DNA of 64,000 bases. Source: Escherichia phage vB_EcoS_AKFV33. The DNA lies in the sequence record NC_017969.1; one strand, written 5' to 3'. Positions 3,426 to 3,502 of the stretch are shown in pieces; the stretch's first letter is position 1; each line of letters opens with the position of its first letter. The notes beneath the pieces are model-generated. The model made no database searches. It was not told the origin of the DNA and saw only the letters and a program-made list of their open reading frames with translations. A program made the position numbers and the translations under genes.

Positions 3426-3502
3426 TGGTAGGGGTGGTGGGATTCGAACCCACAAAACCTGAATTTTAAGTCCAGTACCTATGCCAATTCGATTACACCC
3501 CC
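3426..3502 (-). tRNA. tRNA with anticodon TAA (Leu-type anticodon) but short 5-nt variable arm
   Basis: acceptor GGGGGTG/CACCCCT, anticodon stem CTGGA/TTCAG with loop CTTAAAA, T-arm GTGGG-TTCGAAT-CCCAC, discriminator A, CCA encoded; D-stem non-canonical. Confidence 0.5.

What the first reader, a model, noticed from the sequence alone, without database searches (positions are those of the whole stretch)
3426..3502. tRNA with Leu-type anticodon UAA but a short variable arm
Acceptor, anticodon and T arms fold well and the discriminator is A, but the variable region is only 5 nt and the D-stem is irregular, unlike canonical type II tRNA-Leu. If charged, this is a non-canonical decoder of UUA/UUG; if not, it may be a tRNA-derived regulatory RNA.
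Basis: seen in the sequence. Interest (0 to 1): 0.5.

Follow-up and report, generated by a model that had tools for sequence, protein, structure and literature searches.

The report
Phage leucine tRNA without long arm
This is a real leucine tRNA gene of a T5-like coliphage that lacks the long extra arm of bacterial leucine tRNAs but keeps every feature the E. coli charging enzyme is reported to read, and it belongs to a large family of such short leucine tRNAs in phages that I found described in no paper.

Summary
Window 3426-3502, minus strand, is a 77-nt tRNA gene with encoded CCA, anticodon UAA, A73 and a 5-nt variable loop GUUUU. The "irregular" D-stem (3 bp plus G13·A22) has the same layout as in E. 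coli tRNALeu(UAA).

The window is a T5-like phage (Tequintavirus) tRNA cluster. The gene is 100% identical in about 290 phage records and is routinely annotated tRNA-Leu. The T5 and BF23 type strains carry the HNH endonuclease gene hegA at this site instead.

It belongs to a large phage family of short ("type I") tRNALeu:
- An anticodon-free scaffold pattern found 100 distinct 77-nt tRNAs in 120 viral contigs.
- All 100 have Leu anticodons and A73.
- Cloverleaf covariation is very strong (99.2% of cells paired).
- Ser and Tyr tRNAs in the same loci keep their long arms.

A sister gene in BF23 has an identical D block, variable loop and T loop. Its GenBank note says it becomes an effective amber suppressor when given a CUA anticodon.

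UUA is the phage's commonest Leu codon.

Most likely this is a functional tRNALeu charged by host LeuRS, which does not need the arm. Charging was not tested here. Interest is moderate: the gene is known, but its architecture in phages appears undescribed.

The parts
3426..3502 (-). tRNALeu(UAA) gene, 77 nt including the encoded CCA; type I (short variable loop)
   Evidence: ARAGORN; Rfam RF00005 at 57.4 bits; 100% identical and annotated tRNA-Leu in about 290 T5-like phage records
3466..3468 (-). Anticodon UAA within the loop C32-U33-U34-A35-A36-A37-A38
   Evidence: Sequence; ARAGORN places the anticodon at position 35. The A36-A37-A38 and A35 motifs are those the review names as TrmL determinants
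3454..3458 (-). 5-nt variable loop G44-U45-U46-U47-U48. U48 is the partner of A15 in the Levitt pair
   Evidence: Sequence. RUUYU was part of the search pattern for the family; the A15-U48 role comes from the review
3480..3490 (-). D-arm core block G13-A14-A15-U16-U17-G18-G19-C20-A20a-U21-A22. It has the same length and register as in E. coli tRNALeu
   Evidence: Segment table against E. coli leuZ, T5 type II tRNALeu and BF23 type I tRNALeu; leuZ sequence verified
3426..3429 (-). Discriminator A73 followed by the encoded CCA
   Evidence: Sequence. A73 is present in 100/100 family members although the pattern did not constrain it
4196..4224 (-). Sigma-70-like promoter (TTGCTA-17-TATAAT). Probable start of the transcript that runs through tRNA-Ser(GCU), tRNA(CAU), two small ORFs and this tRNA. 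This link is inferred
   Evidence: Promoter scan. By the window-to-T5 offset it falls inside annotated T5 promoter P15b. No minus-strand terminator was predicted between it and the tRNA
3243..3410 (-). 55-aa ORF whose Shine-Dalgarno sequence and ATG begin 15 nt after the tRNA's CCA, so it is co-transcribed (context)
   Evidence: the ORF listing; sequence

Best explanation
It is a functional elongator tRNALeu(UAA) of a T5-like phage, built on a 'type I' scaffold, meaning a bacterial tRNALeu whose long variable arm is reduced to five nucleotides.

Inferred steps:
- It is transcribed on the minus strand within the phage's early tRNA/small-ORF cluster.
- Host enzymes excise it.
- Host leucyl-tRNA synthetase charges it with leucine. 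The enzyme ignores both the anticodon and the long arm. It reads A73 and the D-loop/variable-loop/T-loop core (U8-A14, A15-U48, G18G19, A20a), all of which this tRNA keeps.
- It is probably modified at U34 and A37 like host tRNALeu(UAA).
- It then reads UUA (and UUG), the phage's most used leucine codon and, from my memory of E. coli codon tables, a minor one in the host.

Shown here: the gene, its cloverleaf, its conservation, the Leu-only family, the codon usage, and the suppressor annotation of a sister gene. Inferred: transcription unit, processing, charging by LeuRS and modification.
For: 1. It is a genuine, selected tRNA.
- ARAGORN and Rfam both call it.
- It is 100% identical in 291 records, while its flanks are at most 95.8% identical.
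- Across 78 distinct family members, 99.2% of stem cells pair and 19 of 20 pairs show double changes. The covariation score is 0.911, against 0.258 in shuffles and at most 0.175 with slid partners.

2. Leu identity.
- An anticodon-free scaffold pattern returned the same 120 viral loci as the anticodon-constrained one.
- All 100 distinct tRNAs carry Leu anticodons: UAG 59, UAA 17, CAA 14, CAG 5, AAG 4, GAG 1.
- A73 is present in 100/100 and U8 in 99/100.
- One scaffold carrying all six Leu anticodons and no others fits an anticodon-independent synthetase.

3. E. coli LeuRS determinants as listed in the identity review are all present: A73, A15-U48, G18G19 and A20a. The long arm and the anticodon are dispensable, and arm-less variants remain active (PMC9976931). 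The D block has the same length and register as in E. coli leuZ.

4. Ser and Tyr tRNAs in the same 120 loci keep their long arms (111/112 and 46/49). The review calls the arm's size the major element of serine identity. Leu tRNAs in those loci are 188 short and 70 long.

5. BF23 tRNAL1(UAG) is a 77-nt sister gene with an identical D block, variable loop, T loop and A73. Its record carries the depositors' note 'replacement of the anticodon with CUA sequence converts this tRNA into effective amber suppressor'.

6. At the same locus, T5-like phages carry either this type I tRNALeu(UAG) (162 records) or a type II one (54 records).

7. Demand: UUA is 26.6% of Leu codons (21.7 per 1000) and CUA 21.6% in the window's ORFs. 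These match the two phage tRNALeu anticodons, UAA and UAG.
Against: - No charging or expression data exist for this gene itself.
- The BF23 suppressor note does not say which amino acid is inserted, and I could not find the underlying paper.
- E. coli LeuRS failed to charge the only studied bacterial type I tRNALeu, S. coelicolor tRNALeu(CAA). Those authors state that EcLeuRS only charges type II (PMC6614811). That tRNA, however, has variable loop ACAGC with C48 rather than U48.
- G1·U72 at the end of the acceptor stem is unusual.
- The T5 and BF23 type strains lack the gene, so it is dispensable in the laboratory.
- MFE folding of the bare sequence prefers a non-cloverleaf structure.
- The D-loop and variable-loop conservation in the viral set is partly imposed by my search pattern.
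Confidence: 0.85

Rival explanations
1. Anti-defence design. It is a working tRNALeu, but the loss of the long arm is an adaptation. It would make the phage's tRNALeu invisible to nucleases, from host defences or from the phage itself, that recognise or cut the long variable arm of type II tRNAs. Leucine decoding could then continue when host tRNALeu is destroyed.
For: [quoted passage not shown]
- Host tRNALeu is among the targets of the Retron-Kva2 HEPN nuclease and of Cas13a.
- A bacterial Schlafen restricts T5-like phages by cutting tRNAs. Its reference list cites human SLFN11 cleaving type II tRNAs.
- Short tRNALeu are widespread in tRNA-rich phages, and 56/120 loci also hold a type II copy.
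Against: - None of the papers I read reports a bacterial nuclease specific for the variable arm of tRNALeu.
- The reported tRNALeu and Schlafen cuts are in the anticodon loop or arm, and this tRNA keeps U33-U34 there.
- LeuRS tolerance of arm loss, together with the review's point that SerRS reads the arm's size, explains the pattern without any defence pressure.
Confidence: 0.12
2. It is not used in translation. It would be a tRNA-like RNA acting as a decoy, regulator or processing signal for the neighbouring small ORFs, or a decaying pseudogene.
For: - The T5 region holds several stable tRNA-like RNAs of unknown function.
- The gene is absent from T5 and BF23.
- The ORF downstream starts 15 nt after CCA.
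- A mosaic, non-foldable copy exists in phage APCEc03.
Against: - All universal tRNA positions, the encoded CCA and A73 are kept.
- It is 100% identical in 291 genomes.
- Family-wide compensatory changes occur in all four stems.
- The anticodon is restricted to Leu codons.
- A sister gene is annotated as an effective suppressor.
- Its anticodon matches the phage's top Leu codon.
Confidence: 0.03
3. It is charged, but with an amino acid other than leucine, so UUA/UUG would be mis-decoded or recoded in phage proteins.
For: It lacks the class-defining long arm, and EcLeuRS was reported not to charge a type I tRNALeu from Streptomyces. The BF23 note does not name the inserted amino acid.
Against: - From my own knowledge of E. 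coli identity rules, the other anticodon-independent systems do not fit. Ala needs G3·U70, and here the pair is G3-C70. Ser needs the long arm and G73.
- Systems that depend on the anticodon would not recognise UAA.
- The same scaffold carries all six Leu anticodons and no others.
- UUA is the phage's commonest Leu codon, so recoding would rewrite its proteome.
Confidence: 0.02

Closest known systems
E. coli tRNALeu(UAA) (leuZ), a canonical type II tRNALeu
   Same: Same anticodon and same A35-A38 in the anticodon loop. A73, U8, a 3-bp D stem with G13·A22, a 9-nt D loop with A14 A15 .. G18 G19. A20a in the same register, U48, a standard T arm and encoded CCA.
   Different: leuZ has a 15-nt variable arm (CGGCGUUCGCGCUGU); the phage tRNA has 5 nt (GUUUU). 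The phage tRNA has C32 rather than U32, and G1·U72 rather than G1-C72. BLAST found no similarity to any E. coli genome.
BF23 tRNAL1 / Spc35-type tRNALeu(UAG), 77 nt, of T5-like phages
   Same: Same type I scaffold, with identical D block GAAUUGGCAUA, variable loop GUUUU, T loop UUCGAAU, A26, A73 and CCA. 55/77 positions are identical, and the differences lie in the stems. It occurs in the same tRNA cluster; the closest relative, IME178, has both genes.
   Different: The anticodon is UAG and the stem sequences differ. It lies next to tRNA-Ala, at the site where T5 has a type II tRNALeu(UAG). It is the one with a functional annotation, as an amber suppressor after an anticodon swap.
Streptomyces coelicolor type I tRNALeu(CAA) (PMC6614811)
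   Same: A bacterial-cytoplasm tRNALeu with a 5-nt variable loop that coexists with type II tRNALeu and a single LeuRS.
   Different: Its variable loop is ACAGC (C48, not U48). It needs features of the Streptomyces LeuRS leucine-specific domain and is not charged by E. coli LeuRS. It is a cellular gene, not a phage gene.
Human mitochondrial tRNALeu(UUR)
   Same: It lacks the long variable arm, and its identity is reported to rest on A73 and A14 (review). From my own knowledge, it has a UAA-type anticodon reading UUR.
   Different: It is organellar, has a floppy structure and its own mitochondrial LeuRS. No sequence relationship was tested.
Engineered arm-less E. coli tRNALeu variants (Larkin et al. 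2002; Asahara et al. 1998, as summarised in PMC9976931)
   Same: tRNALeu without the long variable arm is still leucylated, provided A73 and the D/T-loop tertiary contacts are intact. The phage tRNA looks like a natural version of these constructs.
   Different: Those are laboratory constructs, some also lacking the anticodon arm. I could not read the primary papers.

Membership tests
tRNA (Rfam RF00005) | Score above the curated gathering threshold of the covariance model | tested here: met
   57.4 bits against 29, E = 1e-10, full-length match to model positions 1-71
tRNA (Rfam RF00005) | Cloverleaf supported by compensatory changes, and universal nucleotides present | tested here: met
   99.2% of cells paired and 19/20 pairs with double changes in 78 distinct relatives. 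U8, A14, G18G19, U33, G53, U54, U55, C56, A58 and C61 are present
Bacterial (E. coli-type) tRNALeu, substrate of LeuRS | Discriminator A73 | tested here: met
   A at window 3429; 100/100 in the family. Role taken from the review
Bacterial (E. coli-type) tRNALeu, substrate of LeuRS | Core tertiary elements: U8-A14, A15-U48, G18G19 and A20a in the tRNALeu register | tested here: met
   All are present at the corresponding positions, and the D block has the same length as leuZ. This is presence in sequence only; no 3D or biochemical test was done
Bacterial (E. coli-type) tRNALeu, substrate of LeuRS | Long (type II) variable arm of more than 10 nt | tested here: not met
   The variable loop is 5 nt, GUUUU. 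The arm is a class hallmark but is reported not to be a LeuRS determinant in E. coli
Bacterial (E. coli-type) tRNALeu, substrate of LeuRS | Actually aminoacylated with leucine | not testable with these tools
   There is only indirect support: a Leu-only anticodon set and the suppressor note for BF23 tRNAL1
   The pattern matches the window once, with 0 expected. It found 100 distinct members in 120 viral loci and members in cultured Vibrio, Aeromonas, Salmonella, Cronobacter and Xanthomonas phages
Type I tRNALeu of Streptomyces coelicolor | 5-nt variable loop in a cytoplasmic tRNALeu | tested here: met
   Both have 5 nt, but the loop sequences differ (GUUUU against ACAGC). Common descent was not tested
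Stop-codon suppressor / recoding tRNA | Anticodon complementary to a stop codon | tested here: not met
   The anticodon is 5'-UAA-3', which pairs with UUA/UUG, not with a stop codon. The 7-nt loop has a single good stem register

The most novel reading that the evidence does not exclude
Phages have repeatedly kept leucine tRNAs stripped of the long variable arm because the arm is a handle for tRNA-targeting nucleases, from host defence or phage-versus-phage warfare. The arm-less tRNALeu would then be an immune-evasion device, analogous to T5's cleavage-resistant tRNATyr and tRNALys, rather than mere codon supply. A corollary is that E. coli LeuRS charges two structural classes of tRNALeu in one cell, contrary to a published statement that it charges only type II.
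Probability: 0.12. Interest if true: 0.8.

Novelty: new member of a known kind. Interest (0 to 1): 0.45.

Why it matters
tRNALeu is a textbook class II (long-arm) tRNA in bacteria. The only described bacterial exception I could find is in Streptomyces. That paper states that E. coli LeuRS charges only type II tRNALeu, and that one LeuRS serving both types in one cell was a first.

This gene and its relatives suggest that coliphages routinely deliver arm-less tRNALeu into E. coli. They also suggest that such tRNAs are common in tRNA-rich phages generally, while Ser and Tyr tRNAs in the same phages keep their arms.

This matters in three ways:
- It gives a natural test of which parts of tRNALeu the synthetase and the rest of the translation machinery really need.
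- It supplies compact leucine-tRNA scaffolds with anticodons for all six Leu codons. A sister gene is annotated as working as an amber suppressor, which may be useful for genetic-code engineering.
- It raises a testable question in the active field of tRNA-targeting phage defence.

For genome annotation, it shows that the short arm is not a gene-calling error.

Tried and rejected
- Three collection scans used mis-spaced patterns through my own counting errors. Those scans still turned up short tRNALeu with 6-7-nt variable loops.
- MFE folding of the single sequence gives a non-cloverleaf fold with an insignificant z-score. I set it aside in favour of the covariance models and covariation.
- An 8-bp hairpin between the 5' leader and tRNA positions 5-12 was flagged as a plus-strand terminator-like site. 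Leader pairing is not enriched across 105 family members compared with shuffles, so I treated it as chance.
- There is no similar sequence in 5,426 E. coli genomes, so the gene is not a captured host gene or an E. coli prophage gene.
- Literature searches for a description of phage short-arm tRNALeu found nothing. The Larkin 2002 paper is not held.
- I looked for a known nuclease that targets the tRNALeu variable arm. I found only variable-loop cleavage of tRNATyr and anticodon-loop or anticodon-arm cleavage of tRNALeu and other tRNAs.
- I considered an ochre-suppressor reading and rejected it, because anticodon UAA reads UUA/UUG.
- I considered an alternative D-stem register with 8-nt loop numbering and rejected it, because only 2 of 4 pairs would form.

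Full report
**What is at the coordinates.** ARAGORN predicts 11 tRNA genes in the first 6 kb of the window, all on the minus strand. One is tRNA-Leu(taa) at exactly 3426..3502. Rfam's tRNA model matches 3429..3502 at 57.4 bits (gathering score 29, E = 1e-10). The minus-strand sequence is GGGGGUGUAAUCGAAUUGGCAUAGGUACUGGACUUAAAAUUCAGGUUUUGUGGGUUCGAAUCCCACCACCCCUACCA.

The cloverleaf has these parts:
- a 7-bp acceptor stem beginning with G1·U72;
- U8 and A9;
- a 3-bp D stem (A10-U25, U11·G24, C12-G23) flanked by G13·A22;
- a 9-nt D loop, AAUUGGCAU;
- a 5-bp anticodon stem with loop CUUAAAA, giving anticodon UAA;
- a 5-nt variable loop, GUUUU;
- a 5-bp T stem with loop UUCGAAU;
- A73 and an encoded CCA.

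At 77 nt including CCA, there is no room for a long variable arm. Single-sequence MFE folding does not recover the cloverleaf (z = -1.2), so I do not rely on it.

**Where the window comes from.** The first 8 kb match T5-like phages (Demerecviridae, Tequintavirus). The best match is Escherichia phage IME178, at 95.8% identity over 97% of the query, and 518 records match in total. The tRNA lies in the well-known T5 tRNA/small-ORF cluster.

The 77-nt gene is 100% identical in 291 phage records and at least 95% identical in 33 more. Where those records are annotated, it is called tRNA-Leu. It is therefore more conserved than its surroundings.

The T5 and BF23 type strains do not have it. Homology between the window and T5 stops at window 3432 and resumes at 3998. 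The interval in the window holds the tRNA and two small ORFs. In T5 and BF23 it is occupied by hegA, annotated as HNH endonuclease F-TflIV in the BF23 record. The gene is thus dispensable in the laboratory.

**The "irregular" D stem matches the tRNALeu layout.** I verified the E. coli tRNALeu(UAA) (leuZ) sequence against 5,425 E. coli genomes and compared it segment by segment.
- leuZ has D stem GUG/CAC with G13 and A22 flanking a 9-nt loop, AAUCGGUAG.
- The phage tRNA has D stem AUC/GGU with G13 and A22 flanking AAUUGGCAU.
- The length and the register of A14, A15, G18G19 and A20a are the same.
- The last variable-loop base is U48 in both.

According to the tRNA identity review (PMC9976931), E. 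coli leucine identity rests on A73, the A15-U48 Levitt pair, G18G19 and A20a, and the D/T-loop contacts. The anticodon and the long variable arm are not required, and arm-less variants remain active. All of these elements are present here. What is missing is only the part the synthetase is reported not to need.

**It belongs to a large phage family.** BLAST with the tRNA found diverged 77-nt tRNA-Leu(UAG) genes in other T5-like phages (Spc35, RN29, Ob_P), in Vibrio phage JSF12 and in Aeromonas phage LAh_8. All have the same D block, an RUUYU variable loop and A73.

I turned this into a scaffold pattern, GAATNGGYATA-N9-YT-N10-RTTYT-N5-TTCRA, that leaves the anticodon free.
- It hits the window once, with 0.00 expected.
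- It returned exactly the same 120 loci as a version requiring N-A-R at the anticodon.
- Those loci hold 100 distinct 77-nt sequences, every one with a Leu anticodon: UAG 59, UAA 17, CAA 14, CAG 5, AAG 4, GAG 1.
- All 100 have A73 and 99 of 100 have U8. The pattern constrains neither position.

I aligned 78 distinct members, including the window gene, and counted pairs on the cloverleaf.
- 99.2% of cells pair.
- 19 of 20 pairs show changes on both sides.
- The covariation score is 0.911, against 0.258 in shuffles (0 of 500 reach it) and at most 0.175 when partners are slid.

Two caveats apply. The D-loop and variable-loop conservation in this set is partly imposed by the pattern, and the scans were truncated. 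The stems, the anticodon and position 73 were unconstrained.

**Contrast with Ser and Tyr.** ARAGORN found 1,883 tRNAs in the 120 viral loci.

| tRNA | Short | Long |
|---|---|---|
| Leu | 188 (74-80 nt) | 70 (81 nt or more) |
| Ser | 1 (69 nt) | 111 (84 nt or more) |
| Tyr | 3 (72-79 nt) | 46 (82 nt or more) |

The window shows the same picture: Ser 89 nt, Tyr 91 nt, Leu 77 nt. The loci were selected for having a short Leu, so the Leu ratio is biased, but the Ser and Tyr result is not. The identity review calls the size of the extra arm the major element of serine identity and rates the arm's sequence elements of low importance for tRNALeu. This is the pattern expected if the arm is lost only where the synthetase tolerates it. 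56 of the 120 loci also hold a type II tRNALeu.

**Functional evidence from a sister gene.** The BF23 tRNA-region record (AJ604530.1) annotates a 77-nt tRNAL1(UAG). It is 100% identical to the Spc35-type gene. Its note reads [quoted passage not shown].

That gene shares 55 of 77 positions with the window tRNA. The D block, variable loop, T loop, A26, A73 and CCA are identical, and the differences lie in the stems.

Among T5-like records, the locus next to tRNA-Ala carries either this type I tRNALeu(UAG) (162 records) or T5's 85-nt type II tRNALeu(UAG) (54 records). This is a natural allele swap and suggests the two forms are equivalent. The closest relative, IME178, has only type I Leu tRNAs, UAG and UAA.

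**Demand side.** In 53 non-overlapping ORFs of the window (17,018 codons, 39% G+C):
- UUA is the most used Leu codon, at 26.6% of Leu codons (21.7 per 1000);
- CUA is second, at 21.6%;
- CUG is 17%.

From my own knowledge of E. coli codon tables, CUG is about half of E. coli Leu codons, while UUA and CUA are minor. The two phage tRNALeu anticodons, UAA and UAG, match the phage's two preferred Leu codons.

**Likely mechanism.** A sigma-70-like site at 4224-4196 on the minus strand falls within the position of annotated T5 promoter P15b. No minus-strand terminator is predicted downstream of it. I infer one transcript running through tRNA-Ser(GCU), tRNA(CAU), two small ORFs, this tRNA and the 55-aa ORF, whose Shine-Dalgarno sequence and ATG start 15 nt after CCA.

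The remaining steps are inferred from known pathways rather than tested. Host RNase P and 3' trimming would release the tRNA, and host LeuRS would charge it. The loop C32-U33-U34-A35-A36-A37-A38 carries the A35 and A36A37A38 motifs named as TrmL determinants in the review. The same A36A37A38 motif suggests that A37 could be isopentenylated. The mature tRNA would read UUA and UUG.

**Rivals.**
- Non-translational tRNA-like RNA or pseudogene: contradicted by the conservation, the covariation, the Leu-only anticodons and the suppressor note.
- Charging with another amino acid: unlikely. From my own knowledge of E. coli identity rules, Ala needs G3·U70 (the pair here is G3-C70) and Ser needs the arm and G73, and no anticodon-reading synthetase recognises UAA.
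- Counter-evidence to the main reading: E. coli LeuRS did not charge S. coelicolor type I tRNALeu(CAA), and its authors say EcLeuRS only charges type II (PMC6614811). That tRNA, however, has variable loop ACAGC with C48, not U48.
- Anti-defence rationale for losing the arm: this remains open. [quoted passage not shown] Reported cuts in tRNALeu, and those of a bacterial Schlafen active against T5-like phages, are in the anticodon loop or arm. I found no arm-specific tRNALeu nuclease.

**Novelty.** The gene itself is already annotated in hundreds of records. Short-arm tRNALeu is a known kind, in mitochondria and in S. coelicolor. In the searchable literature I found no description of short-arm tRNALeu in phages or of their breadth. 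The only paper using the term "type I tRNALeu" is the Streptomyces one. I therefore class this as a new member (and a family) of a known kind, of moderate interest.

No E. coli genome holds anything similar. Cultured-phage relatives include phages of Escherichia (4MG), Cronobacter (GAP31), Salmonella (PVP-SE1), Vibrio, Proteus, Providencia, Aeromonas and Xanthomonas. Streptomyces phage Teutsch has two 75-76-nt tRNA-Leu(UAG) genes.

**Unexplained.** G1·U72 closes the acceptor stem here and in 20 of 78 family members. I have no explanation for it.

Noticed in passing
window 4011-4085 (-) and 6376-6447 (-): Two Rfam tRNA matches (38.2 and 35.5 bits) that ARAGORN does not call. The first corresponds to T5 tRNAI2(CAU) and is annotated tRNA-Met-CAT in IME178. 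The second is 'tRNA-Undet' in IME178, lies in the stretch T5 annotates as stable 'RNAX', and has no encoded CCA.
   Followed up: partly
window 1293-1375 (-): tRNA-Asn(GUU) is 83 nt, with an unpaired variable region of about 11 nt. This is the opposite anomaly to the finding. The T5 counterpart is 78 nt.
   Followed up: no
window 3433-3997; T5 NC_005859 36372-37075; BF23 AJ604530.1 9166-9849: The cassette of tRNALeu(UAA) plus two small ORFs is an alternative occupant of the site that holds hegA (HNH homing-like endonuclease F-TflIV) in T5 and BF23. Homology with T5 breaks at the 3' end of the tRNA gene. One of the two ORFs is a 61-aa CxxC...CxxC protein annotated 'antitermination protein Q' in relatives.
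   Followed up: partly
L008 (Escherichia phage APCEc03, KR422353.1) 1293-1369: A patchwork of the UAA and UAG type I tRNALeu genes. The 5' acceptor half and anticodon come from the UAA gene, and the T arm and 3' acceptor half from the UAG gene. The acceptor stem cannot pair and ARAGORN does not call it. The genes normally lying between the two loci are missing, so this looks like a recombination or assembly product.
   Followed up: partly
L136 (IMGVR_UViG_3300024432_000784) 4532-4611 (-): An 80-nt tRNA on a Leu-like short-arm scaffold with an 8-nt anticodon loop, CUUAAAAA. ARAGORN calls it 'tRNA-???(taaa)'. It is a possible four-base decoder or frameshift suppressor.
   Followed up: no
L147 (Desulfobacterales MAG contig JANQFQ010000051.1) 5256-6219: A cluster of three 78-79-nt tRNA-Leu (UAA, CAA, AAG) plus tRNA-Cys, next to an 83-nt type II tRNA-Leu(CAG), on a contig binned as bacterial. 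It may be a prophage or a mis-binned phage, or it may be evidence that short tRNALeu also occur in cells.
   Followed up: no
window 666-741 (-): This tRNA-Lys(CUU) has no counterpart in the T5 type-strain tRNA list, which has only Lys(UUU). IME178 has both. This may be relevant to tRNALys-targeting defences such as PARIS.
   Followed up: no
window 2209-2366 (-): Several neighbouring phage tRNAs have mismatched stems: tRNA-Trp has two U·U in the acceptor stem and tRNA-Phe has two U·U in the anticodon stem. The T5 record notes that these species could not be converted into amber suppressors.
   Followed up: no
L150 (Pseudomonas phage 201phi2-1, EU197055.1) 298-384: This 87-nt type II tRNA-Leu(UAA) has the same D block (GAAUUGGUAUA) as the short-arm family. 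That fits the short form arising from a phage type II tRNALeu by loss of the arm hairpin.
   Followed up: no
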